Position numbers and translations under genes: made by a program. The notes under the pieces were generated by a model, which saw only the letters and a program-made list of their open reading frames with translations, did no database searches and had not been told where the DNA came from. A DNA stretch of 64,000 nt from Clostridia bacterium. Lineage in GTDB: Bacteria; Bacillota; Clostridia; Christensenellales; UBA1242. Every line of letters starts with the position of its first letter. Position 1 is the stretch's first letter. The stretch spans positions 95,885-159,884 of the forward strand of contig JAZRRE010000031.1 in assembly GCA_045650505.1 (NCBI GenBank), in the 5' to 3' direction. Positions 1 to 64,000 of this stretch are shown piece after piece.

Positions 1-69
1 AAAAAACCAGCAGCTGGAAGTGGTCCAAATGGTGGGGAAGGTCCTGCAGGAAGCGGATTTGGAGAATAA
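1..69 (+). CDS. 3' end of an upstream gene (partial; C-terminus ...KPAAGSGPNGGEGPAGSGFGE*)
   Basis: Frame 1 is open from base 1 to TAA at 67-69. The RBS of the next gene follows directly. Identity unknown. Confidence 0.4.
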   Translation, partial: KKPAAGSGPNGGEGPAGSGFGE

Positions 70-84
70 TGAAAAGGAGTTTTT

Positions 85-444
85 ATGAGCGAAAATATTG
101 TTAGTGGAAAAGACTTTTTAGATAAAATTGTGACTGTTAAAATGGATAGACCATTAGGCACAGCTCACCCAAAACACGGATTCATTTATGAAGTGAATTA
201 TGGCTATATTGAAAACACTGTTTCAGGTGATGGAGAAGAACTTGATGCTTATGTGGTTGGTGAACACAAACCACTTGAAACTTTCGAAGGTAGAGTTGTT
301 GCTGTGATTCACAGAACCAATGACAACGATGACAAACTTGTTGTTATGGAAGATGGCAGAAATTACACAGATGACCAACTTGAAGCACTTTTAGAGTTTC
401 AAGAAAGATTCTTTAAGCATATCATTTTAAGACCAAATAAATAA
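85..444 (+). CDS. small inorganic-pyrophosphatase-like protein (119 aa)
   Basis: RBS AAAGGAG upstream. The motif DRPLGTAHP..NYGYI..DGEELDAYVVG resembles short PPase-like proteins. The family call is from memory, not from a search. Confidence 0.5.
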   Translation: MSENIVSGKDFLDKIVTVKMDRPLGTAHPKHGFIYEVNYGYIENTVSGDGEELDAYVVGEHKPLETFEGRVVAVIHRTNDNDDKLVVMEDGRNYTDDQLEALLEFQERFFKHIILRPNK

Positions 445-452
445 ATTTAAAC

Positions 453-482
453 AAAAAAAACGACCAAATTTGGTCGTTTTTT
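453..482. terminator. bidirectional intrinsic terminator
   Basis: A-run, stem CGACCA/TGGTCG with loop AATT, then a T-run. It sits between convergent genes. Confidence 0.8.
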
Positions 483-491
483 GTTTGCTAA

Positions 492-1139
492 TTATTCATT
501 TGAATTAAGTTTTTGGTTTGTTTCATCTTCATCAGGTTCTTCATTGTCAAGTCTTCGAAGTTCTCTAAATTTAAGTTTTGCTGCAAAAAGACTTTTTCTT
601 GGTTTTTCACGAATGTCTAAAAAGTTTTGCTTGATTGCTGAAAAGTTTCTGCGAATGATAATTTTTGCAACTTCAAACAAAATGTTGATTACCGTGAAAG
701 TGAATGAAACAACTGCCCACATCACTGCTGAAAAATCAGTTGTTCCGGTGATGATAAGTGCGTTAACAGCAGTTGCAATTGAAAGCACAAAGTTGAGTGT
801 TTGAATGAAATATTTTAAAAAGTTGGTTGCACTTTTATAGTTTTTTAGTTGTCTGTTCATTCTTTTTCGATTGCCAAGATTAATCAAAATCAAAAGCAAG
901 AAAGCCACACCATAAATCACAAGAATCCACTTAATGAGTGTGGATAAAAATGTGCTTATCGAAAGGTTGTATATAACAAAGAATGTGTATGCTGAATAAA
1001 TGGTGATTGAAATTAAGTTCCAAAAGAAAAAGAACACTTGAATTTTTGACCATTTCTCTTTTTTTTCAGGAAGTGGCTGTGGCGTGCTTGCGATATTAGA
1101 TTCTTTCTCTATTGGTTTTCTTTTAAATAATTTGAACAT
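492..1139 (-). CDS. multi-pass membrane protein, unknown function (215 aa)
   Basis: Long ORF with several hydrophobic helices (e.g. IQVFFFFWNLISITIYSAYTFFVIY, ILVIYGVAFLLLILI). No family recognised. Confidence 0.7.
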   Translation of the reverse strand: MFKLFKRKPIEKESNIASTPQPLPEKKEKWSKIQVFFFFWNLISITIYSAYTFFVIYNLSISTFLSTLIKWILVIYGVAFLLLILINLGNRKRMNRQLKNYKSATNFLKYFIQTLNFVLSIATAVNALIITGTTDFSAVMWAVVSFTFTVINILFEVAKIIIRRNFSAIKQNFLDIREKPRKSLFAAKLKFRELRRLDNEEPDEDETNQKLNSNE

Positions 1140-4062: not shown

Positions 4063-5979
4063 TTATTTTAAATACATAAGAAGCACGGTGATGTCTGCAG
4101 GGCTAACGCCTGAAATTCGGCTTGCCATTCCAACAGAAAGTGGCTTGATTTTGTTAAGCTTTTCACGAGCCTCAAGGCGAAGTCCATCAAGTTTTAAATA
4201 ATCAAAATCGGCAGGAATCTTCTTTTCTTCAAGTTTCTTTGCTTGAAGGGCTTGCTCTTGTTGACGAGCAAGATAGCCTGAATATTTGGTGTCTATTTCA
4301 ACAGCGGTAACAACTTCTCTTGAGTATCCCTTGAAAAGTTTAAGAGCCTTGTTAAGTGCTTCAAGGGTAACTGCTGGGCGTTTGATTAAACTTTCAACAG
4401 TTGCACCGTGTTCTGGGAATTTTTCGCCAACACTTTCTAAAAATGCTTTGAGTTCTTTGGTTGGTTTAAGGTTTTGTTTAATTTCGGTTTTAAGTTTTTC
4501 AATATTTCTCATTTTGCGTTTAAACTTGTTATAACGCTTGTCATCAACAAGACCAACTTTTCTTCCAATTTCAGTGAGTCTTTGGTCTGCGTTGTCTTGG
4601 CGAAGAATAAGTCTAAACTCTGCGCGGCTGGTCATCATTCTATATGGTTCGTTTGTGCCTTTTGTGGTAAGGTCATCAATCAAAACGCCGATGTATGCTT
4701 CATCACGTTTTAAAACAATTTGCTCTTTGCCTTGAAGGTAAAGTGAAGCGTTGATTCCGGCAACAATGCCTTGACCTGCGGCTTCTTCATAACCAGAAGT
4801 TCCGTTAATTTGTCCCGCACAGAAAATGCCTTTAACTTTTTTAAACTCAAGTGTTGCATATAAATTAAGTGGGTCAATGCAGTCATATTCAATGGCGTAG
4901 GCATATTTCAAAATTTTGGTTTTTTCCATACCTTCAATAGACTCAACCATTTTGTGTTGAATGTCCATTGGCATACTTGTGCTCATACCTTGAATATAAA
5001 TTGTGTTGTCATCAAGGGTTTCTGGTTCAAGGAAAATTTGGTGTCTGTCTTTATCTGAAAAACGAACAAACTTTGATTCAATTGAAGGGCAATATCTTGG
5101 ACCTTCTCCGGTAATCACACCTGAATACATTGGCGCTTTGTCAAGGTTGTTCATAATGATATCTTTGGTTGCTGGGGAAGTGTATCCAAGCCAGCAAGAA
5201 CGAATATTTTTGTTAGCTTTTTTTGTAAGGAACGAAAAAGTTTGAATGTTTGTGTCGCCTTGTTGTTCGGTGAATTTTGAATAATCAATGGTGTCACCAT
5301 CAACACGAGGAGGGGTTCCCGTTTTGAAACGAAGCACATCAAAACCAATATCGATAAGTGATTTTGTTAAACCTTTTGCATAAGGGAAACCTGATGGACC
5401 TGAATCTTTAATAATTTCACCGGTGATTGTTCTAGCGTTCAAATAAACGCCGGTTGTGAGAACCACTGCTTTGGTGTAAAAAGTTTTTCCATCAGCAGTT
5501 TTAACAGCTTTAAGCTCACCATTTTCAACAACAACTTCGGTGCATTCTCCATCATAAATATAAAGGTTTTCTTGGTTCTCAAGAGTTTTTTGCATTGAGC
5601 GGTGATAGCCGGTTTTGTCAATTTGTGCACGAAGACTTTGAACAGCAGGGCCTTTTCCCATATTGAGCATACGAAGTTGAATGGTGTTTTTATCAGCTTC
5701 AATACCCATTTGACCACCGAGTGCATCGACTTCACAAACAATGTGTCCTTTTGCTGTTCCACCAATGCTTGGGTTGCAAGGAAGGAACGCAATGTTGTCA
5801 CGAACAAGGTTAATGATGAGTGTTTTTTGACCGGTTCTTGCAAGGGCTAAACAAGCCTCACAACCTGCGTGACCAGCACCAACAACAACAGCATCAAAAG
5901 ACTCACCATCAGTGATGGTGTATTCTTTGTTTTCTATATTCTTTTCATAGTCGGTGATGTCGTAATTTTGACTATTCAT
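4063..5979 (-). CDS. mnmG: tRNA uridine 5-carboxymethylaminomethyl modification enzyme MnmG (GidA)
   Basis: FAD motif VVVGAGHAGCEA and length typical of GidA. Start trimmed to the ATG at 5979, which is preceded by AGGAG. The longer ORF would overlap the upstream gene. Confidence 0.95.
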   Translation of the reverse strand: MNSQNYDITDYEKNIENKEYTITDGESFDAVVVGAGHAGCEACLALARTGQKTLIINLVRDNIAFLPCNPSIGGTAKGHIVCEVDALGGQMGIEADKNTIQLRMLNMGKGPAVQSLRAQIDKTGYHRSMQKTLENQENLYIYDGECTEVVVENGELKAVKTADGKTFYTKAVVLTTGVYLNARTITGEIIKDSGPSGFPYAKGLTKSLIDIGFDVLRFKTGTPPRVDGDTIDYSKFTEQQGDTNIQTFSFLTKKANKNIRSCWLGYTSPATKDIIMNNLDKAPMYSGVITGEGPRYCPSIESKFVRFSDKDRHQIFLEPETLDDNTIYIQGMSTSMPMDIQHKMVESIEGMEKTKILKYAYAIEYDCIDPLNLYATLEFKKVKGIFCAGQINGTSGYEEAAGQGIVAGINASLYLQGKEQIVLKRDEAYIGVLIDDLTTKGTNEPYRMMTSRAEFRLILRQDNADQRLTEIGRKVGLVDDKRYNKFKRKMRNIEKLKTEIKQNLKPTKELKAFLESVGEKFPEHGATVESLIKRPAVTLEALNKALKLFKGYSREVVTAVEIDTKYSGYLARQQEQALQAKKLEEKKIPADFDYLKLDGLRLEAREKLNKIKPLSVGMASRISGVSPADITVLLMYLK

Positions 5980-5987
5980 AAGTTCTC

Positions 5988-6548
5988 CTAAATTTTTTCT
6001 TTTTTTGAAGCAATCACGCTTTGAAGTGATTTGTTCAATGTTTTTGCACAAAGATAATCTTCGCTGTTTGTTTGTTCAAGTTCAAAACCGAAGTTTGAAA
6101 ACAAGTGTTTGCTTGCTTCGTTGTCTTTGTGAATATAACAGAAAATGCTTTTTGGTTTAATGCCTGCGTGCTTTTTGAAGTTTCCAAAAAGTTCAGTTAG
6201 CATTTCGTTTCCATAACCCAAGTGTTGATAGTTTGGGTTTAAAACAATGTATTGAAAAAACATTTCTGGGTGAGGGGTGTCGATGTCAAACACATCGAAA
6301 ATAATAAACCCCAAAATTTCGTTTTTGTCAGTTTTTGCAACCAGCATTTTTTTGATTTCACTTTTGCCGATTGAAAAATGTTCATAATTGGTGGCAATAA
6401 GCTCTCCAAGACCAAAAATAAGGTCGTCTTCTAAAATGAAATGTCTGATTGATTCATACTCTGGCTTTCCGCGATAAAGGGTGTCCCAACTTTCAATTTG
6501 AGGCTTGTCAGCTTCAAGATTTATTGGTTCAAGTTTAAAAGTTTTCAT
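5988..6548 (-). CDS. GNAT-family N-acetyltransferase (186 aa)
   Basis: Acetyl-CoA-binding-like segment YIVLNPNYQHLGYGNEMLTELF. Located between mnmE and mnmG. Confidence 0.75.
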   Translation of the reverse strand: MKTFKLEPINLEADKPQIESWDTLYRGKPEYESIRHFILEDDLIFGLGELIATNYEHFSIGKSEIKKMLVAKTDKNEILGFIIFDVFDIDTPHPEMFFQYIVLNPNYQHLGYGNEMLTELFGNFKKHAGIKPKSIFCYIHKDNEASKHLFSNFGFELEQTNSEDYLCAKTLNKSLQSVIASKKEKI

Positions 6549-6565
6549 AAGCGATTCCTTTAGTT

Positions 6566-7921
6566 TTATTTTCCTAAACAGAATTTTTTGAAAATAGCGT
6601 CGATAATTTCTTCACTTGTGGTATTTCCTGTGATTTCGCCGATTGCATTATAAGCCTCTTTGATATCAATCGAAACAAGGTCAAGAGTGTCAGCAGAAAT
6701 ATTTTCTGCTGCTTGGTCAAGTGCTTGTTTTGCACGGGTGAGGGCATCTTTGTGGCGTTCATTTGTGATAACCACACTGTCAGCAGGAATGCTTGAAATT
6801 TGTGTGAGTTCCAAAATTTTAGCTTTAAGTTCGTTAACACCAGAGCCTGTTGCTGTGCTGATTAAAATTTCATTTTCAAAAACCTTGTCATTTTTTGTTT
6901 CAAGGTCGCTCTTTGTTTTCAAAACGATATATTTTGAGTTTTGAATGCTGTCAAAAATTTCAGCATCTTCTTTTGAAAATTCTCTTGATGAGTCAACAAG
7001 AAAAAGCACAATGTCTGCTTGCTTGATTAAATTTTTTGCTTTGTCAACGCCAATTTTTTCAACCTTGTCAGCGGTGTCGTGAATGCCAGCGGTGTCAATA
7101 AGATTAACCTTTACATCATCAAGCAAGAAACTGTCTTCAATGGTGTCACGAGTTGTTCCTGCAACATCGGTAACGATTGCTCTTTCTTTTTGAAGAAGGA
7201 AATTGAGAAGACTAGATTTTCCAACATTAGGTTTTCCAACAATCAAAACATTGATTCCGGATTTGATTAAACTTCCGGCTTTGGCAGTTTTCAAAACTTC
7301 GCCAATTTTTGAAGATAGGGCAGTGAGCCTTTCTTTAACATTTGCTTTTGTGATATATTCAATGGTTTCTTCAGGGTAATCAAAAGAAACTTCAATTTCG
7401 CTTAAGATATCAGTGAGTTCATTAGCAGCATCAAATGCGAGTTTGCTTAAGTTTCCTGAAAGAAGTTTAAATCCTGCACGAACTTCTGCGTCACTTTCAG
7501 CATTAATCATATCAATCATACCTTCGGCAGAAGAAAGTGTCATTTTTCCATTCAAGAATGCACGCTTTGTAAACTCTCCATTAGTTGCAAGTCGTGCACC
7601 AAGTTTTAAGCATTCCTTGGTGATTCCGTTTGCGATTTGTGTTCCACCGTGACATTGAAATTCAACAAGGTCTTCACCGGTGTAAGTGAATGGTGCTTTG
7701 AACACAACGCACATAGCCTGCTCATCAAAAGCACTTGTTTTCACTGTTCCAAGAGTAAGCATTCTTGGGGTGAGCATAGATGCTGTTTTATTTTTTGCAG
7801 TAGAAAAGAGCTGGTCAGCAATTTTGATTGCATTTTCACCAGAAAGTCTAACTATAGAAATCGCACCAGAGCTTGCTCCGGTTGAGATTGCAACGATTGT
7901 TTCTTGATTTAAATTTGCCAT
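6566..7921 (-). CDS. mnmE: tRNA modification GTPase MnmE (TrmE)
   Basis: G1 motif GKPNVGKSS, DTAG, C-terminal ...FCLGK. The only ATG near the start is at 7921; the ORF track begins at a TTG at 7930. Confidence 0.95.
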   Translation of the reverse strand: MANLNQETIVAISTGASSGAISIVRLSGENAIKIADQLFSTAKNKTASMLTPRMLTLGTVKTSAFDEQAMCVVFKAPFTYTGEDLVEFQCHGGTQIANGITKECLKLGARLATNGEFTKRAFLNGKMTLSSAEGMIDMINAESDAEVRAGFKLLSGNLSKLAFDAANELTDILSEIEVSFDYPEETIEYITKANVKERLTALSSKIGEVLKTAKAGSLIKSGINVLIVGKPNVGKSSLLNFLLQKERAIVTDVAGTTRDTIEDSFLLDDVKVNLIDTAGIHDTADKVEKIGVDKAKNLIKQADIVLFLVDSSREFSKEDAEIFDSIQNSKYIVLKTKSDLETKNDKVFENEILISTATGSGVNELKAKILELTQISSIPADSVVITNERHKDALTRAKQALDQAAENISADTLDLVSIDIKEAYNAIGEITGNTTSEEIIDAIFKKFCLGK

Positions 7922-7930
7922 AACAAACAA

Positions 7931-7958
7931 ATTATAACACTTTTTAAAGATTTTTCAA
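7931..7958 (-). promoter_or_regulatory. mnmE promoter (TTGAAA-16-TGtTATAAT) only 9 nt upstream of the ATG
   Basis: The minus strand reads TTGAAAaaatctttaaaaagtgtTATAATttgtttgttATG. There is no SD, so the leader is very short or absent. Confidence 0.6.
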
Positions 7959-8093
7959 TAATATTTTGTTATTTTTTAATAATTTAAATAATTTTTATTT
8001 TTAAGGCAAAGTTTAGAAAATTATATAAATCAAAGATTTGTTTAAATGATTTTAGTTGTGATATAATGAAAAAGTAAAGGAAATGGTGGCAAA

Positions 8094-8693: not shown

Positions 8694-8730
8694 ACAAAAA
8701 AACACTTGGAAATTTCCAAGTGTTTTTATT
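8694..8730. terminator. bidirectional terminator shared by convergent genes
   Basis: Perfect 22-nt palindrome ACACTTGGAAATTTCCAAGTGT flanked by an A-run and a T-run. The whole intergenic gap is 35 nt. Confidence 0.85.
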
Positions 8731-9451: not shown

Positions 9452-9453
9452 TT

Positions 9454-10632: not shown

Positions 10633-10641
10633 AAAATCTCC

Positions 10642-10917
10642 TTACATAAAATATTTATATTTTCTTTTTGGGTTGATAGGCACAGGGTCTGTGCCACCTT
10701 TTGATTTAGGATTGCATCTTATAAGTCTTTTTGCTGATAGTTTTAAACCAACAAAAAAACCCCACTCGGCAAAACAACTGCTCGCATAAATCGAGCAAGT
10801 AGGTGTGTATTTGCATGCGTGGGGAATAAATGGTGAGATGCAAAACTTGAATATTGCAACAAGAAATAATGCAATATATTTTGGAATGCTAATAATCACT
10901 TTAAGAATTTTCTTCAT
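10642..10917 (-). CDS. yidD: membrane protein insertion efficiency factor YidD
   Basis: Conserved CKYTPTCSIYASSCF...GLKLSAKRLIRCNP. Overlaps the rnpA stop by 17 nt. Confidence 0.9.
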   Translation of the reverse strand: MKKILKVIISIPKYIALFLVAIFKFCISPFIPHACKYTPTCSIYASSCFAEWGFFVGLKLSAKRLIRCNPKSKGGTDPVPINPKRKYKYFM

Positions 10918-11257: not shown

Positions 11258-11271
11258 AACATTCCTTCAAA

Positions 11272-17494: not shown

Positions 17495-19414
<1,920 letters not shown>

Positions 19415-22113: not shown

Positions 22114-22560
22114 CTATTTATCTTCTTTTGCTAATTGTTTAAGAATAGCATCAATTTCTGCAAATTTAGCCTTTTGAGCCTCATTAAGAACTGCAGATTT
22201 TTCTTTTTCGATATCAGCAATAGAAACTTTTTCAGTTCCAGCTGGTGGAACTTCATCAATAGTGTCAAGAAGGGCACTCATTGAAACAATTTGGTCAAAG
22301 AATTTTGGGTCTGTTTTTTGAAGATTCATAAACTTATTGAAAGTTCCTTCAAGGTCTTCTGATGGTGCAAAAACAGCATCAAATTTTTCAAAGAAAGCAT
22401 CAATTTCTTTTTCATCATCAGGCATAACATCACTTGCTTGGCAAATTGCTTCAGCGGTTTCAACAATTTCAAGTTCTTCAGGTGTAAAATCAAGTTCAGC
22501 AAGTTCTTTTTCTGTGAATACTGTTGAAAGTATTGATTTATTTTCATTATTCTTTTTCAT
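22114..22560 (-). CDS. hypothetical acidic protein (148 aa)
   Basis: Start trimmed to the ATG at 22560, preceded by TAGGAGAAAATAT. The longer ORF would overlap the upstream gene by 65 nt. No family recognised. Confidence 0.7.
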   Translation of the reverse strand: MKKNNENKSILSTVFTEKELAELDFTPEELEIVETAEAICQASDVMPDDEKEIDAFFEKFDAVFAPSEDLEGTFNKFMNLQKTDPKFFDQIVSMSALLDTIDEVPPAGTEKVSIADIEKEKSAVLNEAQKAKFAEIDAILKQLAKEDK

Positions 22561-35787: not shown

Positions 35788-36696
35788 TTAAAATTTAAAA
35801 TCATCAGTTTGTTCATTAAAGTCTGGTGTGTAAATGGTTTCAGCACTTTCAAAGCCTTGTGTGAAAACATTGTTAAACCCAAGTTTGAGCAAGTGATTAA
35901 CAACCATTTTATATTCAAGTGGCTTGATTTTTTGGTTAAGTTCTTCAAATTCTGTTGCTCTTGCCATCGGCACATATTGACTCATTAAACTAACATAAGT
36001 TTTGTTTCCAAGATTTTCGTTTATCCAATCTATAATTTTAATGCTGTCAGCAGAGTGGGTTGGAAGCACTAAATGCCTGATAATCATTCCTTTTTTCATT
36101 AAACCATTTTCAAAAATGTCTTCTCTTTGATTTTTTCGCATTTCCAAAGTGGCTTTTTTGCAGGTTTCGGGATAGTTTTCAGCAAGCGAATATTTTTTTG
36201 AAAGGTTAGAATCAAAATATTTAAAGTCAGTTAGATAAACATCAACATAATTTTTAAGCATTTTGATAGTTTCTGGCTTTTCATAGCCCGAAGTGTTCCA
36301 AACAATAGGAATATTTGGGCGATAAATTTCAAGTGCTTCAATGATTTCATTTGTATAATGGGTTGGGGTCACAAGGTTGATATTGTTTGCACCTTTTTCT
36401 TCAAGTTGTTTGAAAAGATTTGCAAGTGTGTTTGTGTCAATTTCTTTGCCCTGACCACCAGCAGAAATTTCTGCGTTTTGGCAATAACAACATTTAAGCG
36501 TGCAGTTTGAAAAGAAAATAGCACCGCTTCCGTTTGCTTGTTTGGTTTCAGTGTCTTCACCAGAAATTGGTGGTTCTTCGAAGTAGTGGAGCATAACCTT
36601 GCTGATTTTAACTTTGCTTGTGCCTTTGCAAAAACCAACCGATGTTTCTCGGTCTGCGTTGCAGTTTCTTGGGCAGATATTACATAAATTTTTCAT
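35788..36696 (-). CDS. radical SAM protein (PflX / pyruvate formate-lyase activase-related type)
   Basis: CX3CX2C motif in FFSNCTLKCCYCQN and an N-terminal Cys cluster CNICPRNC. No SD upstream. Confidence 0.75.
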   Translation of the reverse strand: MKNLCNICPRNCNADRETSVGFCKGTSKVKISKVMLHYFEEPPISGEDTETKQANGSGAIFFSNCTLKCCYCQNAEISAGGQGKEIDTNTLANLFKQLEEKGANNINLVTPTHYTNEIIEALEIYRPNIPIVWNTSGYEKPETIKMLKNYVDVYLTDFKYFDSNLSKKYSLAENYPETCKKATLEMRKNQREDIFENGLMKKGMIIRHLVLPTHSADSIKIIDWINENLGNKTYVSLMSQYVPMARATEFEELNQKIKPLEYKMVVNHLLKLGFNNVFTQGFESAETIYTPDFNEQTDDFKF

Positions 36697-36799: not shown

Positions 36800-38152
36800 A
36801 TGGAACAAAAGTTAAAGAAAAATGATAGAGTTGTTGTTAAAATTGAAAGGCTAGGCGCCAATGGTGAAGGTGTTGCGATTCATAATGGCGTTGTTATTTT
36901 TGTGCCTTTTGCCCTCGTTGGTGATGAAGTTTTAGTTCACATAATTAATGATAAAAATAAATTTTTAATTGCAAAAATAATCGAAATAAAAAAGCCAAGC
37001 CCAAAGAGAATTCAACCAATGTGTCCTTATTTTTCAAAATGTGGCGGTTGTGATTTGCAACATATAAGCTATGCTGATCAACTTTTGTTCAAAAAACAAC
37101 TTATTATTGACACGCTCAAAAAATACGCAGGAATCGAAACACAAGTTGAAGATGTTGTTCCAAGTTCAAAAGTGTTTAGATATAGAAACAAATTTGCTTT
37201 TCCGGTTCAAGATGTTGGTGGTGAAGTTAAGATTGGAATGTTTAGAAAAAACAGCCACCAAATTATTGAGGTTGATGACTGTATGCTTCAAAGTGAAAGA
37301 ACAAAAATAATCATTAAATTGTTCAAAGAATATATGACTGAAAACAAAATTTCAGCATATAACGAAACCACAAAAACCGGAGTGGTTAAACACATTGTTG
37401 TTCGCGAAGCAGAAGAAGACTTCATTATGACAGTGGTTGTGACTGATGAAAAATTCAATAAATTTTCTCCACTTGTTGAGAAATTGAAAAAGCATTTTTC
37501 ATCATTTGGATTATTCAAAAATGTAAATAAATTGAATAATAATGTAATTTTTGGCAACTTAGACAAGAAAATTTATGGAATATATGAACTTTCAAAAAAT
37601 GAATTTGGCGTTCAATATTTTGTGAATAACAGAAGTTTTATGCAAGTGAATGATGAAATCAAAAACATCATTTATCAAAAAATATTAAATACTCTTGGCA
37701 GTCAAAAAAATGTCATTGATGCATACAGTGGTGCAGGGTTACTCTCTAGCATTATTGCAAAAAATGGCTCAAGAGTTTATGGTGTTGAAATTGTAAAAGA
37801 AGCAACTGAAAATGCAAATAAACTTAAAGTTTTAAATAATTTATACAATTTAACAAATAAAAATGGTGACTGTGCAAAAATTATTCCAGAACTTGCAAAA
37901 GAACTTGAAGGCGATTTTGCAGTGGTGGTTGACCCTCCAAGAAAGGGGCTTGAAAATGAGGTTGTTGAAGCATTTTTAAAAGCCGAACCAAAGATGATAG
38001 TTTATCTTTCTTGTGGCCCTTCAACACTTGCCCGTGACCTTAAAAAACTTACAGAAAAATATGACATCAGTTTCGTTCAACCATACGACATGTTTCCACA
38101 AACAGCAAATGTTGAAACACTCGTTTGCTTAAGAATTAAAGGAGAAAAATAG
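36800..38152 (+). CDS. 23S rRNA/tRNA (uracil-C5)-methyltransferase, RumA/TrmA family
   Basis: TRAM-like N-terminus, Fe-S Cys cluster CPYFSKCGGCDLQH, SAM-binding motif DAYSGAG, C-terminal DMFPQTANVETL. Start trimmed to MEQKLKK, preceded by AAGGAAG. Confidence 0.85.
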   Translation: MEQKLKKNDRVVVKIERLGANGEGVAIHNGVVIFVPFALVGDEVLVHIINDKNKFLIAKIIEIKKPSPKRIQPMCPYFSKCGGCDLQHISYADQLLFKKQLIIDTLKKYAGIETQVEDVVPSSKVFRYRNKFAFPVQDVGGEVKIGMFRKNSHQIIEVDDCMLQSERTKIIIKLFKEYMTENKISAYNETTKTGVVKHIVVREAEEDFIMTVVVTDEKFNKFSPLVEKLKKHFSSFGLFKNVNKLNNNVIFGNLDKKIYGIYELSKNEFGVQYFVNNRSFMQVNDEIKNIIYQKILNTLGSQKNVIDAYSGAGLLSSIIAKNGSRVYGVEIVKEATENANKLKVLNNLYNLTNKNGDCAKIIPELAKELEGDFAVVVDPPRKGLENEVVEAFLKAEPKMIVYLSCGPSTLARDLKKLTEKYDISFVQPYDMFPQTANVETLVCLRIKGEK

Positions 38153-38938: not shown

Positions 38939-39577
38939 ATGGAAATTTGGGATTTATATGATGAAAATCAATGCCTTACTGACAGAACTCATATAAGGGG
39001 AAATGAAATCCCTGAAGGGTTCTATCATTTGGTTGTTCATATTTGGATTCGAAATAAAGAAGGTAAATATTTAATCACAAAAAGAGCCGAAAATAGAAAA
39101 ACATATCCACTTATGTTTGAATGTGTTTCTGGTTCAGTGCTTCAAGGTGAAACCAGCAAAGAGGGTGCCATTCGTGAAGTGCTTGAAGAGGTTGGGTTAG
39201 ATTTCAAAAACAAAAAGGGCAAACTTGTTAAAAGTGAAGTTCGAAAAGAATTTAATGGCAAACCATTTAACGACATTTTGAATGTTTGGTTTTATGAGTT
39301 TGATGGTGAGATTGACCTTTCAAAGGCAACCACTGACGAAGTGTGTGAAGCAAAATGGGTTACACTTGATGAAATTAAAGAAATTGAAGAAGCAGGGCTT
39401 TTTGTTCCTTCTCTTGGATATATTTTTGAACTTGATAAAAAATTGAAAGAAAAAAAAGAAAAACAAAAAAAATTAAATAAAAATAAACAAAAGTCGAAAT
39501 ATAATAGTGACAAAAACAAATATTTTGCTTATTATGATGACATTAAACATTCATCACACAAAGTGATTGATTGGTAG
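38939..39577 (+). CDS. NUDIX hydrolase with a Lys-rich C-terminal tail
   Basis: Nudix box GSVLQGETSKEGAIREVLEEVGL. Tail KKLKEKKEKQKKLNKNKQKSK. Confidence 0.85.
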   Translation: MEIWDLYDENQCLTDRTHIRGNEIPEGFYHLVVHIWIRNKEGKYLITKRAENRKTYPLMFECVSGSVLQGETSKEGAIREVLEEVGLDFKNKKGKLVKSEVRKEFNGKPFNDILNVWFYEFDGEIDLSKATTDEVCEAKWVTLDEIKEIEEAGLFVPSLGYIFELDKKLKEKKEKQKKLNKNKQKSKYNSDKNKYFAYYDDIKHSSHKVIDW

Positions 39578-43859: not shown

Positions 43860-43954
43860 ACCAAAAAAAATTATATCACAGCAAAAGAAATTCGTAAATA
43901 CCAAAACTTAAAATAGCTGCATAAAAATAGATTTTAACGATTTTTAAAAAAACA

Positions 43955-43983
43955 TTGACATTTTCATAAAAAGTTATTAGAAT
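43955..43983 (+). promoter_or_regulatory. distal promoter upstream of rpmG
   Basis: TTGACA, a 17-nt spacer, then TAGAAT. Confidence 0.5.
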
Positions 43984-44045
43984 ATAGTCAAGCTTAATAT
44001 CACAAGAGTAATTTAATGTTTCGCAGGAAATATTAAATTTTTCTA

Positions 44046-44074
44046 TTGACAGCAAAAGTTTGTTGTGATATTAT
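44046..44074 (+). promoter_or_regulatory. proximal rpmG-secE-nusG promoter
   Basis: TTGACA, a 17-nt spacer, then TGaTATTAT (extended -10). Confidence 0.65.
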
Positions 44075-44125: not shown

Positions 44126-44275
44126 ATGAGAAATAGAATTACTTTGGAATGCACAGAATGTAAGAATCGTAACTACGAAAGCTTCAAAAACAAGAAGAAT
44201 GACCCAGACAGATTAACATTCAATAAATATTGTCCAACATGCAAAAAACACACAGCACATAAAGAATCTAAATAG
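44126..44275 (+). CDS. rpmG: 50S ribosomal protein L33 (zinc-ribbon form)
   Basis: [17 protein letters not shown]...[13 protein letters not shown]. Start trimmed to the ATG after GAGGAG. Confidence 0.95.
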
Positions 44276-45779: not shown

Positions 45780-46472
45780 ATGAAGAAATTTGGTAAGAAT
45801 TATAGAAATGCTTCTGAAAAAATCGAAGCCGGAAAACTTTATGAAGTTGCTGATGCTTTAGCACTTGCTATCGACACTGCAACAGCAAAATTTGATGAAA
45901 CAATCGAAATTCACATTCGTCTTGGTGTTGACCCAAGAAGTGCTGACCAACAAGTTCGTGGAAGCGTTGTTCTTCCTAACGGAACTGGTAAAACAGCAAA
46001 AGTTGTTGTTATCGCTAAAGGTGACAAAGCTGATGCAGCTAAAGCAGCTGGTGCTGATGTTGTTGGTGCAGAAGAAATCGTTGACAAGATTATGAAAGAA
46101 AACTGGCTTGATTTCGACGTATGTATCACAACTCCTGATATGATGGGTGTTGTAGGTAGATGTGCTCGTGTTCTTGGACCTCGTGGTTTAATGCCAAACC
46201 CAAAGAGCGGCACAGTTACTATGGACGTTGAAAAGGCTATCAAAGATGTTAAAGCTGGTAAAGTTGAATACAGAGTTGACAAATTTGGTATCGTTCACGC
46301 TGCAATCGGTAAAAAGAGCTTTGGCGTTGAAAAACTTATGGAAAACTATGATACATTTGTTGATGCTATCGTTAAAGCTAAACCACAAGCTGCTAAAGGA
46401 ACATACATTAAGTCTGTTAACCTTGCAAGCACAATGGGACCTGGCGTTAAAGTTATGTACAGAGCAAAATAG
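45780..46472 (+). CDS. rplA: 50S ribosomal protein L1
   Basis: [40 protein letters not shown]. Confidence 0.97.
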
Positions 46473-52630: not shown

Positions 52631-53332
52631 ATGGACTTTATTGAAGAAATGTTGAATGATGAAGAAATTTTGTCACAGTATAGGTCGATTGATGCAACAA
52701 ATCATTATCCATCAAGCCACGGAATGAGGCATATTATGGGTGTTGTATCGCTTGCTGATAGACTTGGCAAACTTTTTAACTTCACTGAAAGAGAAATGCT
52801 TATTTTAAAGACCATTGAAATTTTGCATGACATTGGTCAAGTTGGTGGTGTTCGTGCAGGGCATTGGTTTAAGTCTGCTGATTTTGCAAGAGAGTATCTT
52901 CCAAAGAAAAATATTTTCACAAACGCAGAACTTGAAATGATTTATTCTGCAATTTCAACTCACGATGAATTTTTAGATTACACCAAGTTTGAAAATAAAT
53001 ATTCATGGTTTACTGCGTTTATTGACAAACTTGACATTTCAAAAACAAGACTTGAAGATAATGCTGAAGAAAAATTTGGTTATATTAATTCGGCAGACAT
53101 CGAACGACTTGATTTTTATTTAGAAAATGGTGTGTTTAAGATTGTGATTAGAACAATAGAGAACCCAAAAGTGATTGCTCCTGAAAACCTTTACAGCAGA
53201 AACTTAATCTGCAAAACAATGACTTTATTTAAGGGTTTTAGCGAACATTTTGGGCTTATTCCAAAGTTGTTTTTAGAAGATGAAGAACTTGATTTAGATA
53301 AATTTGACCACAATGCTATGATTGACAGATAG
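52631..53332 (+). CDS. HD-domain phosphohydrolase (233 aa)
   Basis: H...HD motif: HGMRHIMGV...ILHDIGQ. Confidence 0.7.
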   Translation: MDFIEEMLNDEEILSQYRSIDATNHYPSSHGMRHIMGVVSLADRLGKLFNFTEREMLILKTIEILHDIGQVGGVRAGHWFKSADFAREYLPKKNIFTNAELEMIYSAISTHDEFLDYTKFENKYSWFTAFIDKLDISKTRLEDNAEEKFGYINSADIERLDFYLENGVFKIVIRTIENPKVIAPENLYSRNLICKTMTLFKGFSEHFGLIPKLFLEDEELDLDKFDHNAMIDR

Positions 53333-53340
53333 GGGATTTT

Positions 53341-54204
53341 ATGAGAGATAATGATAAATGTTGGTGCAAAAGTGAAATAGAATATGCTTTGTGCCATAAA
53401 GAGTTTGATTTAAAACTTGAAGAATTGAAAAAAAGAGGAAAAATTGTTCCTCCAAGAAAACTTATTAAAACAAAAGAGCAGATTGAAGGAATTCGTGAAG
53501 CCGGAAGAATCAACTCACTCATTTTAGATAAGGTGGCAGAAAACATTCACGAAGGAATGTCAACTGAAGAAATTGACAAAATTGTTTTTGAAGAAACAAA
53601 AAGACTTGGTGGTCGTCCTGCTCCACTTGGTTATTGTGGGTTTCCAAAGTCCGTTTGCACATCAGTTAACGGTGTTGTTTGTCACGGCATTCCAAGCAAA
53701 AAGCAAATTTTGAAAGCCGGTGACATTGTTAATGTTGATTGCACAACCGAAGTTAATGGTTATTATGGCGACGCTTCAAGAATGTTTATTATTGGAGAAG
53801 CAAGTGAAGAAGCGAAAAAACTTGTTAGAGTAACAAAGGAATGTTTAGACTTTGCTTTTTCAAAACTTACTCCTTTTATGAATGTTGGTGATATTGGTCA
53901 TTATGTAAACAAAATGGCAAGGGCAAATGGCTATTCAGTAGTTAAAGAACTTGGTGGACATGGCGTTGGTCTTGCAATGCATGAAGACCCATTTGTTAAT
54001 CACACAGCAAAAATTGGAACAGGAATGGTGCTTGCACCGGGAATGGTGTTCACAATCGAGCCAATGATTAATGCTGGAAAAGCCGGTGTTTATATTGATG
54101 CAGATGATGGCTGGACAGTTCGAACACAAGACGGTTCACTTTCTGCTCAATGGGAATATACAATTTTAATGACTGAAACCGGTGCAGAAATTTTGTCTAA
54201 ATAG
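53341..54204 (+). CDS. map: type I methionine aminopeptidase with an N-terminal SEC-C-like zinc motif
   Basis: CWCKSEIEYALCH at the N-terminus. Metal-binding motifs VNVDCT..YYGDASRMF, GHGVGLAMHE, FTIEPM. Confidence 0.92.
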   Translation: MRDNDKCWCKSEIEYALCHKEFDLKLEELKKRGKIVPPRKLIKTKEQIEGIREAGRINSLILDKVAENIHEGMSTEEIDKIVFEETKRLGGRPAPLGYCGFPKSVCTSVNGVVCHGIPSKKQILKAGDIVNVDCTTEVNGYYGDASRMFIIGEASEEAKKLVRVTKECLDFAFSKLTPFMNVGDIGHYVNKMARANGYSVVKELGGHGVGLAMHEDPFVNHTAKIGTGMVLAPGMVFTIEPMINAGKAGVYIDADDGWTVRTQDGSLSAQWEYTILMTETGAEILSK

Positions 54205-58882: not shown

Positions 58883-59242
58883 ATGGGATATAATTTTTCA
58901 AATGATAAACCGATATTTTTACAACTTGCTGATGTGATTAAAAGTGATATCGTGAGTGGCAAATTTAAAATAACAGAAAAACTTCCATCAGTTCGTGACT
59001 TTGCATTTTTGTATGGGGTGAATCCAAACACCGTTCAAAAGGCACTTCAAATTTTGGAAGATGAGGGACTTATTGTAACCGATAGAACAAATGGAAAATT
59101 TGTTGCAGGAAGCACCGAAAAAATTGAAGCACAAAAATCAAAAACAATAACGCAAGAAATTGATTTATTTATTGAAAAAATGAAATCACTCGGGCTTGGG
59201 CTTGATGAAATTAAAAATTTAATAAATAACAGGGGAGAGTAA
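58883..59242 (+). CDS. GntR-family transcriptional regulator, YtrA subfamily (119 aa)
   Basis: KLPSVRDFAFLYGVNPNTVQKALQILEDEGLI. The short effector domain is typical of YtrA-type regulators. Confidence 0.85.
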   Translation: MGYNFSNDKPIFLQLADVIKSDIVSGKFKITEKLPSVRDFAFLYGVNPNTVQKALQILEDEGLIVTDRTNGKFVAGSTEKIEAQKSKTITQEIDLFIEKMKSLGLGLDEIKNLINNRGE

Positions 59243-59244: not shown

Positions 59245-59946
59245 ATGAGCATTATTTTAGAATATAAAAATGTAAACAAAAACTTTGATGAAAAAGAAGT
59301 TTTGAAAGATGTGAACTTAAAAATTGAATCGAATAAAATTGTTGGGCTTCTTGGCAAAAATGGAAGTGGAAAATCAACACTTTTCAAACTTGCAAATGAT
59401 TTGCTTGTGCCAACAAGTGGAGAAGTTTTGATTGATGGCAAACCTGTTTCGGTGGAAAGCAAAAATATGGTTTCATATCTTCCAGAACGTTCATATTTAG
59501 AACCTAATTTAAAGGTTAGTGATGCAATTAAATTGTTTGAAACTTTTTATGAGGATTTTGACAGCAAAAAAGCAGAAAAACTTTTAAAAGACCTTGAACT
59601 TGACCGTGAAATGCGTCTTTCAAAAATGAGCAAGGGTATGAAAGAAAAAGTTCAACTTGTGCTTGTTATGAGCAGAAAGGCAAAAATCTACATTTTAGAC
59701 GAACCTCTTGGTGGTGTTGACCCAGCAAGCAGAGATTACATTTTGCAAACAATCCTCAAAAACTTTGATGAAAATGCAACTCTTTTAATTTCAACACATA
59801 TGGTTGCTGATATTGAAAAGATTTTAGATGAAGTTATTTTCATTGATAATGGCAAAATTGTGCTTCAAGAAAATGCTGATGAACTTCGCGGCAAAGAAAA
59901 GGGTTCAATCGATGAAATTTTCAGGAGGAAATTTTATGTTAAGTAA
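59245..59946 (+). CDS. ABC transporter ATP-binding protein
   Basis: Walker A GKNGSGKST, degenerate signature MSKGMKEK, Walker B IYILDEPLGGVD. Confidence 0.88.
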   Translation: MSIILEYKNVNKNFDEKEVLKDVNLKIESNKIVGLLGKNGSGKSTLFKLANDLLVPTSGEVLIDGKPVSVESKNMVSYLPERSYLEPNLKVSDAIKLFETFYEDFDSKKAEKLLKDLELDREMRLSKMSKGMKEKVQLVLVMSRKAKIYILDEPLGGVDPASRDYILQTILKNFDENATLLISTHMVADIEKILDEVIFIDNGKIVLQENADELRGKEKGSIDEIFRRKFYVK

Positions 59947-60721
59947 ACTTTTAAAAAGAGATTTAAAAAAGAATATGCGCTGGATGTGGATTTTGTTTGT
60001 GGGCACAATTGTGTTTGCAGCAGTGTCAAGAGGCGCAAAAGAACTTGGCGAAAATGTTGCATTTTTCAAAATGATAGGTATTTTTCTTGAAGGCGTGTTT
60101 TATGGCCTTGCAATCAACCTTATTATTCAACCATTTTTGAGAAATTTTTTAAATTTTCATAAATCGTTTTACAGTGATGAGTCTTATTTAACTCACACAC
60201 TACCGGTTACCAAAAATGCACTTATAAATTCGAAATATTTAACAGCACTCATTGAAATTTTGGCTGGTTTTGGTTCACTTATTGTTTCACTTTTGATTAT
60301 GTATGCTGGTCCAAACTTTACACAAGTTTTAAAACTTTTATTCTCAACTTTAATCACAGGTGAGTTTTCACTTTCACTTGCACTTATTGGCGTTGTTGTG
60401 CTTATTATTGTTGAATTTTTAATGTTTATTTCTATTATTGATTTTGCGATTGTTGTTGGTTTTAAATCAAAAGAAAAAAGAATTTTAAAATCATTTTTAA
60501 TCACAGCTGGCTGTGCGTTTGCAGCAATCACAGTGCTTGCAATTTCATTGGTAATTGTTTTGGCGATAAACGGAATCAAATTCACAACAACTTCGCTTGT
60601 GCTTTCAGCAACAGCATTTTATAGTGTGATTGTCACAGCAATTATTATTTATTCAGCTATTTCAATTTTATTTTATTTCTTGGCTAAAAAAGAATTTAAC
60701 AAAGGCGTTAATGTTGACTAA
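59936..60721 (+). CDS. ABC-2-type transporter permease (261 aa)
   Basis: Start trimmed to the ATG after CAGGAGGAA, overlapping the ATPase stop by 11 nt. About six transmembrane helices. Confidence 0.7.
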   Translation: MLSKLLKRDLKKNMRWMWILFVGTIVFAAVSRGAKELGENVAFFKMIGIFLEGVFYGLAINLIIQPFLRNFLNFHKSFYSDESYLTHTLPVTKNALINSKYLTALIEILAGFGSLIVSLLIMYAGPNFTQVLKLLFSTLITGEFSLSLALIGVVVLIIVEFLMFISIIDFAIVVGFKSKEKRILKSFLITAGCAFAAITVLAISLVIVLAINGIKFTTTSLVLSATAFYSVIVTAIIIYSAISILFYFLAKKEFNKGVNVD

Positions 60722-61615: not shown

Positions 61616-61640
61616 TAGATTTTGTTTCACTAGTTTCAAA

Positions 61641-61673
61641 AATAAAAACCACCAAATTTTGGTGGTTTTTTTG
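61641..61673. terminator. bidirectional terminator
   Basis: Stem CCACCAA/TTGGTGG flanked by an A-run and T7. Confidence 0.8.
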
Positions 61674-61683
61674 TGTTTGTTGA

Positions 61684-62484
61684 TTATGGGCGAAGACCAA
61701 GTCCACCTTCAAGGGTAACTGTTTCACCGGTCATAAACTTGAAGTCTGGTGATGCAAGTTGAACGCAAACTCTTCCAATTTCAAGTTCGCTATCGCCGAA
61801 GTGGCCGATTGGTGGAGTTTTTACATTTGCTTTGAATGCATCTGGATATTCATTTGCAAACTTTTCAAGTTGAGCTGTCCAAGCAAGAGGGCAAACAACA
61901 TTAACATTGATGTTATCTTTAGCCCATTCAGTTGCAGCAACACGAGTTAAGCCGCGAATGCCTTCTTTTGCAGCAGCATAAGCACATTGACCATAGTTTC
62001 CAAAAAGACCAGCGCCTGAAGCAAAGTTGATAACAGAACCTTGTGTTTCTTTAAGGTGAGGGTAGCAAGCCTTCATATAATAGAAACTTGCATAAAGTCC
62101 TGAATACATTGCAAGGTTAAATTGGTCTGTTGTGTGGTTTTCAAGTGTAATGCCTGAAGCTGATGCTTGTGCATTGTTGATGAGAACGTCAATTCTTCCA
62201 AACTTTTTCATTGTCTCTTGCACAACCATATTTGCAACTGCTTCATTGTCAGCACCAGCATTGATGTCTGCAACAAGTGTTAAAACTTTAATTTTATAAT
62301 TCTTTTCAAGTTCTGCTTTTGCATCAAGAAGTTTTTGTTCATTTCTTCCTGTGATTACAAGGTTTGCACCTTCTTTTGCGTAAGCTGTTGCGATTCCATA
62401 GCCAATAGAACCACATTTTCCATCAGATAGCACGGCTCTGCCTGCACCTGTGATAATGGCGGTTTTTCCTTTTAAAAATCCCAT
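61684..62484 (-). CDS. short-chain dehydrogenase/reductase (SDR) family oxidoreductase
   Basis: TGAGRA...GSIG cofactor loop, catalytic YAAAK. Start trimmed to MGFLKGK after AAAGGAGAA. Confidence 0.85.
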   Translation of the reverse strand: MGFLKGKTAIITGAGRAVLSDGKCGSIGYGIATAYAKEGANLVITGRNEQKLLDAKAELEKNYKIKVLTLVADINAGADNEAVANMVVQETMKKFGRIDVLINNAQASASGITLENHTTDQFNLAMYSGLYASFYYMKACYPHLKETQGSVINFASGAGLFGNYGQCAYAAAKEGIRGLTRVAATEWAKDNINVNVVCPLAWTAQLEKFANEYPDAFKANVKTPPIGHFGDSELEIGRVCVQLASPDFKFMTGETVTLEGGLGLRP

Positions 62485-62644
62485 AATAAATTCTCCTTTT
62501 TTATTATTTACAATTTTGATTATAAACAAAATGGTAAATACTAGCAAATAAATTACGCACGAAAGTAACTTATTTTAATATTTTATTGAAAACAAAAAAG
62601 TTTTGTGATATAATTATATTATTAAAACTATGGGGAGTTAAATC

Positions 62645-64000
62645 ATGAAAGAAGGATTAAATCTTGACGGCATTAAACTTGCACTTAAATTGAAGTTTGA
62701 AAAAGTTAAACCATTTGTTGAAAAAGAATACAAAAGACCGGCTGAAGCAAAAGCACCTTATGTGTCTGCAGAGTGTCCTGAAAAACTTAAATCTCTTGCT
62801 GAAAGACTTGTGGCTATTCAAACTTTAAATGGTGAAATTAAAACTGAAGACATTGAAAAGAATGATGTTTATAAAATCAAAGATATGTCGAGAGAGCCAT
62901 ACAAGTTATCATTTAGAGATGCAATTTCATTTATGGTTGAAAATGCTTACTTTGTTGATTTTGATGTGGTTAACGCACGACACATTTTAAGATTTTTAAA
63001 TGAGTTTGAAGAAATATATAATAAATTTTATGCACAAAATGGGGCGGTTCCATTAAATGCATTCAGCACTGAAACTAGACTATTTATTAAAAACTTAAAA
63101 TCAGGGCTTTCAAAAGAAGAAGTTATGAGAACTATTTTAGAAGTCTATGCACCTGAACACGCTGATGTGAAAATGGAACATCATAATTATGAACTTGTTC
63201 CAAAGTCGCCACTCACTGAAGAAGAAATTGATAGAATTGTTGCTGAACTTTCTTCGATTGCAAAAGATGGTAATATTGATGCTTTGTTTTCAAATAAATA
63301 TGAGCCATATTTCAAAAAACTTTGTGAAAGACTTAAGATGTCGGGTTACACATTCAACTCATTTATCACAAGGCACACAAATTTTGATTACACAATGTGT
63401 TTTAAGTGTGACATTGTTAAAGCAACAAAACAAATGTGTGAAAGTTATTATGACCAATTTGGCACAACGGTTGGTATTCAATATAAAGACCCTTATCTTT
63501 ATAACAAAATTGAGCTTGCAAAAGAAATTTTGGGTGTTTACACAATAAGTGAAGTGCTTCAAGAAATGGGTATAGAAAGTGATAACTATGACACTTCAAA
63601 ACATACACTTTCAGAAGAAATTATTTTAAAGCGTGAAAAGGCTCTTTTTGCAAAACTTGGAGAAATTTATCCAGACAAGTTCATAACTTTAAAGTCAAGC
63701 ATTAATGAAAGTGAACTTTATGAAGAATTATTGTTTTTGGCAAGGCGTAGAAAATTTGCAAATGTAAATGACTATCTTGCAACAAAGGGTTTTTCAAGAG
63801 ATATGAATTACAATGCAAAAGTTAACAGAAATATGTATTTAAGTGAAAGAGATATTGTTCATTATGGATTTTTAAAATATGCTAAAACACCTGAAGATGT
63901 TGAAAAGAAACTTGCAGACAAAGGTGTGGAACTTGCAGACCCTTATGTGAGTCTTGGTGTGTATAGAAAACTTGCATTTGATGGTATTGATAGTGAAGTA
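62645..64000 (+). CDS. hypothetical protein, 3'-partial (at least 452 aa, runs off the window)
   Basis: Not in the ORF track because no stop is reached. I translated it by eye from the ATG at 62645 (after GGGGAG and a TTGAAA-17-TGaTATAAT promoter) and found no stop through base 64000. No family recognised. Confidence 0.7.
   Translation, partial: MKEGLNLDGIKLALKLKFEKVKPFVEKEYKRPAEAKAPYVSAECPEKLKSLAERLVAIQTLNGEIKTEDIEKNDVYKIKDMSREPYKLSFRDAISFMVENAYFVDFDVVNARHILRFLNEFEEIYNKFYAQNGAVPLNAFSTETRLFIKNLKSGLSKEEVMRTILEVYAPEHADVKMEHHNYELVPKSPLTEEEIDRIVAELSSIAKDGNIDALFSNKYEPYFKKLCERLKMSGYTFNSFITRHTNFDYTMCFKCDIVKATKQMCESYYDQFGTTVGIQYKDPYLYNKIELAKEILGVYTISEVLQEMGIESDNYDTSKHTLSEEIILKREKALFAKLGEIYPDKFITLKSSINESELYEELLFLARRRKFANVNDYLATKGFSRDMNYNAKVNRNMYLSERDIVHYGFLKYAKTPEDVEKKLADKGVELADPYVSLGVYRKLAFDGIDSEV

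What the first reader, a model, noticed from the sequence alone, without database searches (positions are those of the whole stretch)
1..64000. TGA is never used as a stop codon at about 68 gene ends (TAA about 59, TAG 9, TGA 0) and never occurs in-frame
I read the terminal codon of every coding region listed here, on both strands. All end in TAA or TAG. The TAG set is gyrB, the GNAT gene, the 148-aa gene, the m5U methyltransferase, the Nudix gene, rpmG, rplA, the HD gene and map. In low-GC bacteria that use the standard code, TGA usually terminates an appreciable minority of genes; as an approximate recollection, on the order of a tenth or more. If the true share were 10 percent, zero in 68 would have a probability of about 1e-3. 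Conserved proteins are full length under the standard table, and Trp in conserved contexts is TGG (for example GyrB ...DQLWDT...). So TGA is not a common sense codon here either. A codon absent both as stop and as sense is what the codon-capture route to TGA reassignment predicts, which is the route taken in Mycoplasmatales (code 4) and in code-25 lineages. It could also reflect weak or lost RF2.
Basis: partly seen in the sequence, partly recalled or inferred. Interest (0 to 1): 0.65.

Follow-up and report, generated by a model that had tools for sequence, protein, structure and literature searches.

The report
Gut Clostridia lineage that almost never uses TGA
In this window no gene ends in TGA and none contains it in frame, and relatives show the same avoidance at about 2% of gene ends against about 11% in comparable bacteria, but I could not determine whether the cell has lost the factor that reads TGA as stop.

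Summary
There is no in-frame TGA, and all 94 Trp codons are TGG.

Composition does not explain it. TGA is frequent off-frame and in intergenic DNA.

It is also not a fluke of this window. The organism is an uncultured gut 'Clostridia bacterium' MAG lineage. Across 13 dereplicated loci of that lineage, 241 gene ends are TAA 201, TAG 35 and TGA 5 (2.1%). In AT-rich outgroup loci called the same way the TGA share is 10.6% (Fisher p = 2.5e-5).

TGA is therefore not strictly absent from the lineage. Five genes in relatives end in TGA. All five overlap the next gene's ATG, and four have a TAA or TAG within 1-4 codons.

No TGA is used as a sense codon, so codes 4 and 25 are excluded.

I could not reach prfB or tRNA-Trp, so 'weak or lost RF2' remains untested. 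The likeliest reading is the standard code with TGA kept as a rare, strongly disfavoured stop. An RF2-less state with TGA unassigned remains a live minority possibility.

The parts
1..64000 (.). Census region: 65 complete genes (90% coding). Stops are TAA 56, TAG 9, TGA 0. There is no in-frame TGA, and Trp is TGG in all 94 cases.
17498..19414 (+). gyrB, ends in TAG. The in-frame TGA at 17492 lies in the ribosome-binding region upstream of the ATG.
5988..6548 (-). GNAT acetyltransferase between mnmE and mnmG, ends in TAG. Its ortholog in relative L011 ends in TGA inside an ATGA overlap with mnmG, followed at once by TAG.
22114..22560 (-). 148-aa gene, ends in TAG.
36809..38152 (+). TRAM / m5U methyltransferase, ends in TAG. 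The start was placed by comparison with the 447-aa call in L001.
38939..39577 (+). Nudix hydrolase, ends in TAG.
44126..44275 (+). rpmG (L33), ends in TAG.
45780..46472 (+). rplA (L1), ends in TAG.
52631..53332 (+). HD-domain protein, ends in TAG.
53341..54204 (+). Methionine aminopeptidase (map), ends in TAG.
58883..59242 (+). GntR regulator, ends in TAA two bases before the ABC ATPase ATG (59245). The homolog in relative L139 (56% identity) ends in TGA inside an ATGA overlap, followed by GTG TAA.
22326..22547 (-). 73-aa TGA-ending ORF, out of frame inside the 148-aa gene. Not a gene.
36369..36638 (-). 89-aa TGA-ending ORF, out of frame inside the radical-SAM gene 35788-36696. Not a gene.
43876..44055 (-). 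59-aa TTG-started TGA-ending ORF in the spacer upstream of rpmG. Its sequence is implausible for a protein, so it is probably not a gene.
63189..63548 (+). Spurious ORF. It overlaps, out of frame, a P-type ATPase gene that starts near 62.7 kb and runs off the window end. It holds the window's only two CGG codons.

Best explanation
The window comes from an uncultured, cell-walled, AT-rich (33% GC) gut Clostridia lineage that uses the standard bacterial code. TGA has been pushed down to a very rare stop codon, roughly 2% of gene ends across the lineage, which is about five times lower than in comparably AT-rich gut Firmicutes. A 64-kb stretch with no TGA stop is then the expected outcome.

Shown:
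- TGA is not a sense codon.
- TGA is common off-frame and in spacers, so the deficit results from selection on termination codons, not from composition.
- In relatives, TGA survives only where it overlaps the start codon of the next gene, usually with a TAA or TAG a few codons downstream.

Inferred:
- RF2 is still present, so TGA still terminates.
- Termination at TGA is costly in this lineage. Possible reasons are low RF2 activity or abundance, or high near-cognate read-through by tRNA-Trp. Mutations from TAA to TGA would then be purged, except where ATGA coupling or a nearby back-up stop makes them harmless.
For: Window census: 0 TGA in 65 gene ends and no in-frame TGA.

Lineage identity: DnaA is 98% identical to MAG RGIG1681 from goat cecum and 63-72% identical to seven other 'Clostridia bacterium' MAG species.

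Lineage census: 241 gene ends give TAA 201, TAG 35, TGA 5. Outgroup loci at GC 0.25-0.38 give 46/432 TGA. The odds ratio is 0.18 and Fisher p = 2.5e-5.

TGA is not compositionally rare. There are 349 + 1444 off-frame TGAs inside genes. Intergenic counts are TAA 570, TGA 212, TAG 119, a neutral TGA:TAG ratio of 1.8:1. The observed ratio is 0:9 in the window and 5:35 in the lineage.

Credible genes in relatives do end at TGA: a Pfam-supported cytidylyltransferase, a GntR regulator and a GNAT. This is what a functioning but rare stop codon looks like.

All known RF2-less bacterial lineages have reassigned TGA to a sense codon (PMC8629427; bioRxiv 10.64898/2026.05.24.727570; mBio PMC12421855), and this lineage has not. 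A 7% TGA share in F. johnsoniae is already called unusually low for a species that retains prfB (bioRxiv 10.1101/2024.09.24.614795).
Against: prfB was never seen, so retention of RF2 is an inference. A share of about 2% lies below anything I could document for a standard-code bacterium with RF2.

Four of the five TGA ends have TAA or TAG within 1-4 codons. In outgroup TGA-ending genes this holds for 25% (P = 0.016), and among NTGA starts in this lineage for 11.5% (P = 8e-4). That pattern is what one expects if TGA is not read efficiently as stop.

The sample is small (five TGA ends) and this test was devised after seeing the data. Orthologous loci in relatives are not fully independent.
Confidence: 0.55

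Rival explanations
1. RF2 has been lost, or is effectively inactive on UGA, in this lineage, and no tRNA has captured the codon. TGA would then be an unassigned codon, the intermediate stage predicted by the codon-capture and unassigned-codon models. The few TGA 'ends' would be read through or stalled at, and tolerated only because a TAA or TAG follows within a few codons.
For: TGA is near-absent both as stop and as sense codon across about 240 genes and 13 loci.

Selection against TGA is far stronger than against TAG, despite the neutral abundance of TGA.

Four of five TGA ends have a back-up TAA or TAG within 4 codons, giving P = 0.016 to 8e-4 depending on the null.

All five sit on the next gene's start codon.
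Against: There is no direct evidence on prfB. The lineage is free-living, cell-walled (mraY, mur ligase and ftsW in L162) and not extremely AT-rich, unlike most RF2-less bacteria.

One TGA-ending ORF, L155 14394-14717, has no back-up stop for 21 codons. It lies in an apparent insert between the 16S and 23S genes.

Every documented RF2-less bacterium uses TGA as a sense codon (PMC8629427, PMC12421855, PMC13462651), and here there are none among about 370 Trp codons.
Confidence: 0.3
2. Sampling or regional bias. The genome has an ordinary TGA share (about 7-12%), and this origin-proximal window, rich in housekeeping and ribosomal genes that prefer TAA, simply happens to have none.
For: The window holds dnaA, gyrAB, ribosomal proteins and glycolytic genes. 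Highly expressed genes favour TAA (PMC6006363).
Against: P(0/65) is 7e-4 to 0.009 at 10.6-7%. Outgroup loci were centred on the same genes (dnaA, GAPDH) and still show 6-20% TGA.

Independent loci of eight or more related species show the same deficit, including non-housekeeping regions such as L162, L139 and L155.
Confidence: 0.08
3. TGA has been reassigned to an amino acid (code 4, Trp; or code 25, Gly) but is used rarely.
For: No gene ends in TGA in the window. The GC content is in the range of some code-4 lineages.
Against: There is no in-frame TGA in 19,118 codons, and all 94 Trp codons are TGG. Coding density under table 11 is 85-92%, whereas the two code-25-like 'Peribacteria' loci collapse to 6-21% with the same caller.

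The homology screen of all TGA-containing frames found only antisense shadow ORFs and upstream TGAs.
Confidence: 0.02

Closest known systems
Mycoplasmatota that retain prfB (Acholeplasmataceae, phytoplasmas) and other standard-code bacteria with low TGA use, such as Flavobacterium johnsoniae at 7% TGA
   Same: AT-rich genomes, standard code, TGA a minority stop, TAA dominant (mBio PMC12421855 / bioRxiv 10.1101/2024.09.24.614795).
   Different: The share here is lower still, about 2% in the lineage and 0 of 65 in the window. The organism is a cell-walled gut Clostridia lineage at 33-37% GC. prfB status is unknown here but documented there.
Code 4 lineages (Mycoplasmatales/Entomoplasmatales, Hodgkinia, Zinderia, Nasuia, Stammera, some Eggerthellaceae and Minisyncoccia)
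   Same: TGA is not used to end genes. Stops are TAA and TAG only. Both are Bacillota-affiliated or gut-associated with reduced GC.
   Different: Those lineages use TGA abundantly as Trp, lack prfB and usually carry tRNA-Trp(UCA) (PMC8629427, PMC13462651, 10.64898/2026.05.24.727570). Here there is no sense TGA at all, and some relatives' genes do end in TGA.
Codon-capture (Osawa-Jukes) and unassigned-codon models of UGA reassignment
   Same: The window shows exactly the predicted intermediate phenotype: the codon is absent from both stop and sense positions.
   Different: These are models, not a family. The defining molecular state (no RF2, no cognate tRNA) is untested here. GC is not extreme, and the codon is not fully extinct in the lineage.

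Membership tests
Genetic code 4 (TGA = Trp) | In-frame TGA at conserved Trp positions of conserved proteins | tested here: not met
   0 in-frame TGA in 65 genes and 94 TGG. No homology-supported in-frame TGA in lineage loci.
Genetic code 4 (TGA = Trp) | tRNA-Trp with UCA anticodon | not testable with these tools
   No tRNA gene in the window or in any lineage locus. The rest of the genome was unreachable.
Genetic code 4 / 25 | Loss of prfB (RF2) | not testable with these tools
   No release-factor GGQ motif in 2.2 Mb of held loci. That sequence covers only a small part of any one genome.
Genetic code 25 (TGA = Gly) | Coding density collapses under table 11, with TGA at Gly columns | tested here: not met
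   Coding fraction is 0.85-0.92 under table 11 in the window and relatives. It is 0.06-0.21 in the two 'Peribacteria' control loci L048 and L051.
Standard code 11 with TGA as a working stop | Genuine genes terminate at TGA at the expected C-terminus | tested here: inconclusive
   None in this window. Five such genes occur in relatives (cytidylyltransferase, GntR, GNAT and two hypotheticals), but four have TAA or TAG 1-4 codons later, so read-through would be nearly indistinguishable.
Standard code 11 with TGA as a working stop | Intact prfB | not testable with these tools
Unassigned-codon / codon-capture intermediate | Codon absent from both sense and stop positions | tested here: inconclusive
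   Met in the window (0 of 19,118 sense codons and 0 of 65 stops). In the lineage, TGA is 2.1% of stops and 0 of the sense codons.
Unassigned-codon / codon-capture intermediate | No release factor and no tRNA for the codon | not testable with these tools
   Same limitation as above.

The most novel reading that the evidence does not exclude
This gut Clostridia lineage has lost RF2 function without acquiring a UGA-decoding tRNA. It would be a living, free-living example of the 'unassigned UGA' stage that codon-capture theory postulates but that has not been documented in bacteria outside already-reassigned clades. The rare TGA at ATGA junctions would be read through to a nearby TAA or TAG.
Probability: 0.27. 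Interest if true: 0.8.

Novelty: new member of a known kind. Interest (0 to 1): 0.45.

Why it matters
If the low TGA use simply reflects a rare stop codon, this is an extreme but ordinary point on the known trend of stop-codon usage with GC. Its practical value would be small: table 11 is the right table for gene calling in these MAGs.

If RF2 is really missing or crippled, the lineage would make the first step of UGA reassignment directly observable. That step is the codon going out of use before it is captured. It would be observable in abundant, free-living gut bacteria rather than in reduced endosymbionts.

It would also predict a barrier to phages and mobile elements that end genes in TGA. 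The question can be settled cheaply from public MAGs.

Tried and rejected
1. Exact-protein look-ups for gyrB, dnaN and both window-edge genes found nothing. Only rplA matched, on short metagenome contigs. The window's own genome is therefore not walkable.

2. The single metagenome scan, with GAPDH as query, returned 80 loci at 76-84% identity. None belongs to the lineage, because GAPDH is too conserved. I used them only as a GC-matched background.

3. I walked outward through the SDR gene and a lineage-specific 579-aa family. This added about 90 gene ends and reached an rRNA operon, but no prfA, prfB, secA or tRNA.

4. A regex scan for the release-factor GGQ motif in all six frames of 2.2 Mb found nothing.

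5. The screen for sense TGA gave only antisense shadow ORFs and a TGA upstream of the L012 gyrB start.

6. The phage angle failed. The window proteins tested have no PHROG signal beyond DnaC-like and HNH. Two IMG/VR scans with candidate mobile proteins found nothing. There is no CRISPR array.

7. Table S2 of the prfB survey (per-genome stop usage) was cut off in the stored supplement.

8. I ran no further search on RF2. A generic RF2 query cannot rank this lineage's copy among thousands of equally distant hits, and no look-ups remained to check context.

9. CGG is also virtually absent, but it is nearly as rare in the AT-rich outgroups. I did not pursue it as a code change.
Full report
**What is in the window.**
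The window is 64 kb, 33% GC and about 90% coding. It covers the following genes:
- mnmG, mnmE, jag, yidC, yidD, rnpA and rpmH on the minus strand;
- dnaN and dnaA on the minus strand, divergent from recF, gyrB and gyrA;
- DnaC-like and DnaD-like genes, sbcCD and hisS;
- rpmG, secE, nusG, rplK and rplA, then an L10 leader with rplJ and rplL;
- map, fba, gap, a GntR-ABC module and an SDR.

There is no tRNA.

**Check of the observation.**
A greedy non-overlapping ORF set gave 49 TAA, 7 TAG and 0 TGA for ORFs of at least 100 aa. After curating starts, restoring four genes displaced by over-extended neighbours and removing shadow ORFs, 65 genes gave TAA 56, TAG 9 and TGA 0. They hold 19,118 sense codons, no in-frame stop, and 94 TGG against 0 TGA for Trp.

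ORF 63189-63548 is spurious: a P-type ATPase gene runs off the right end in another frame.

The three TGA-ending ORFs of 59-89 aa are not credible genes. With only TAA and TAG as stops, every TGA in the extended frame of a real gene lies upstream of its start. NCBIfam and Pfam alignments show the conserved proteins are full length.

**Is it more than chance and composition?**
TGA is not rare as a triplet. It occurs 349 and 1444 times in the two off-frames of genes. In spacers it makes up 23.5% of stop-like triplets, against 13% for TAG. Yet TAG ends nine genes and TGA none.

As background I used 120 non-lineage loci fetched around dnaA and GAPDH and called with the same script. Their TGA share is 6-7% below 30% GC, 10.6% at 25-38% GC, and 12% predicted at 33% GC by logistic fit. 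P(0/65) is therefore between 2e-4 and 0.009.

Two 'Peribacteria' loci served as an unplanned positive control. Their coding density collapses to 6-21% under table 11.

**Who it is, and whether relatives share the trait.**
DnaA is 98% identical to MAG 'Clostridia bacterium RGIG1681' from goat cecum. It is 63-72% identical to seven further 'Clostridia bacterium' species-representative MAGs from ruminant and human guts. The next hits drop to 40% or less.

The exact rplA protein occurs only on gut metagenome contigs. Further lineage loci were reached through the SDR gene and a lineage-specific 579-aa family. One distant member carries mraY, a Mur ligase and ftsW, so the group is cell-walled.

The dereplicated census of ORFs of at least 100 aa, with rRNA masked, gives 241 gene ends: TAA 201, TAG 35, TGA 5 (2.1%, 95% CI 0.7-4.8%). 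The GC-matched outgroups give 46/432. The odds ratio is 0.18 and Fisher p = 2.5e-5. Given the relatives' share of 2.7%, P(0/65) is 0.17.

The window's zero is thus the expected draw from a lineage in which TGA is about five times rarer than usual. It is not a fluke, but it is also not proof of total absence.

**The few TGA ends.**
All five are in relatives. Four have a TAA or TAG within 1-4 codons.

| Gene | Locus | Sequence after TGA |
|---|---|---|
| GNAT | L011 | TGA TAG |
| Cytidylyltransferase | L014 | TGA AAA GAT TAA |
| 105-aa ORF | L010 | TGA AAA CAA TTT TAA |
| GntR | L139 | TGA GTG TAA |
| 107-aa ORF, in a 3-kb insert between 16S and 23S | L155 | next TAA/TAG 21 codons away |

All five overlap an ATG of the next ORF, four as ATGA and one as ATGGCTGA. 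For comparison, 24 of 68 outgroup TGA ends are NTGA overlaps.

In outgroup TGA-ending genes below 40% GC, the next in-frame TAA or TAG lies within 4 codons in only 25% of cases. For NTGA starts in this lineage the figure is 11.5%. That gives P = 0.016 and 8e-4 respectively for four or more of five. The test is post hoc and small. Still, it points the same way as the depletion: TGA is tolerated mainly where failing to stop at it would cost little.

**No sense use.**
I screened every TGA-containing TAA/TAG-bounded frame in the lineage against all called proteins. The screen produced only antisense shadow ORFs and a TGA in the ribosome-binding region upstream of gyrB. Codes 4 and 25 are excluded for practical purposes.

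**What could not be done.**
No prfB, prfA, secA or tRNA gene lies in any reachable sequence.

The literature I could search reports RF2 loss only in lineages that have reassigned TGA, and none in Clostridia (PMC8629427; 10.64898/2026.05.24.727570; PMC12421855; PMC13462651). The unassigned-codon model is discussed there as a hypothesis.

**Verdict.**

- Most likely (about 0.55): standard code, with TGA still a stop but strongly counter-selected. The cause may be weak or scarce RF2, or leaky decoding.
- Live alternative (about 0.3): RF2 lost or inactive and TGA unassigned. This would be a notable natural intermediate.
- Regional sampling bias (about 0.08) and reassignment (about 0.02) are poorly supported.

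A prfB, tRNA and stop-codon census on the named public MAGs would settle it within minutes.

Noticed in passing
window 46625-51301; L001 10247-16886: Between rplA and the L10 leader/rplJ sits a block of unknown genes with no Pfam or PHROG hit. It comprises a 1045-aa coiled-coil-like protein (962 aa as called in L001) plus 211-213-aa proteins. In strain contig L001 the 962-aa gene is followed by five tandem genes of 210-216 aa. This is an unusual interruption of the conserved rplKA-rplJL cluster.
   Followed up: partly
window 52511-54204: rplJ-rplL is not followed by rpoB/rpoC. An HD-domain gene, map and small unknown genes follow instead. The same order occurs in relatives L139 and L153.
   Followed up: no
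window 4063-21955: dnaA-dnaN lie on the minus strand, co-oriented with rpmH-rnpA-yidD-yidC-jag-mnmE-GNAT-mnmG, and divergent from recF-gyrB-gyrA. Only 186 bp separates dnaA from recF. GC skew stays positive across the whole window. The order is conserved in L008-L014 and L158.
   Followed up: no
window-wide; ORF 63189-63548: CGG is absent from all credible genes: the only two CGG codons are in a spurious ORF. It occurs at most once per locus across the lineage. It is also rare (0-3 per about 5,500 codons; 6 in L054) in AT-rich outgroups, so this is probably ordinary AT-driven rarity rather than a code change.
   Followed up: partly
L155 13476-16511: In one relative, a 3-kb stretch with four plausible protein-coding ORFs (119, 107, 67 and 290 aa; no Pfam or PHROG hit) lies between the 16S and 23S rRNA genes. 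There is no tRNA in this spacer. It contains the only lineage TGA-ending ORF without a nearby back-up stop.
   Followed up: partly
window 38154-38873 and 43065-43904: An HNH/Mrr_N endonuclease gene and a 279-aa unknown gene are present in the window but absent from the otherwise collinear same-species contig L001. They appear to be strain-variable insertions.
   Followed up: no
window 61684-62547: The SDR oxidoreductase is 83-85% identical to Lachnospiraceae (Acetatifactor) proteins. The lineage's DnaA is 40% identical or less to anything outside the lineage. This suggests either extreme conservation or horizontal transfer.
   Followed up: no
window 59245-59946 / 59828-60721: The ABC ATPase ORF and the downstream permease ORF overlap by 119 nt as called. 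The permease start is probably an internal ATG.
   Followed up: no
L048, L051: Two 'Candidatus Peribacteria' loci fetched by the DnaA scan have almost no long ORFs under table 11 (coding fraction 0.06 and 0.21). This is consistent with a TGA-recoded genome and was useful as a control.
   Followed up: no
L147 12243-13767: A complete 16S rRNA gene of a lineage member lies about 11 kb beyond where the window ends. The order past the window's right end is ATPase, a 474-aa gene, TM2, mnmA, a tRNA-synt_1b gene, the 579-aa gene, then 16S. It could be used to place the lineage taxonomically.
   Followed up: no
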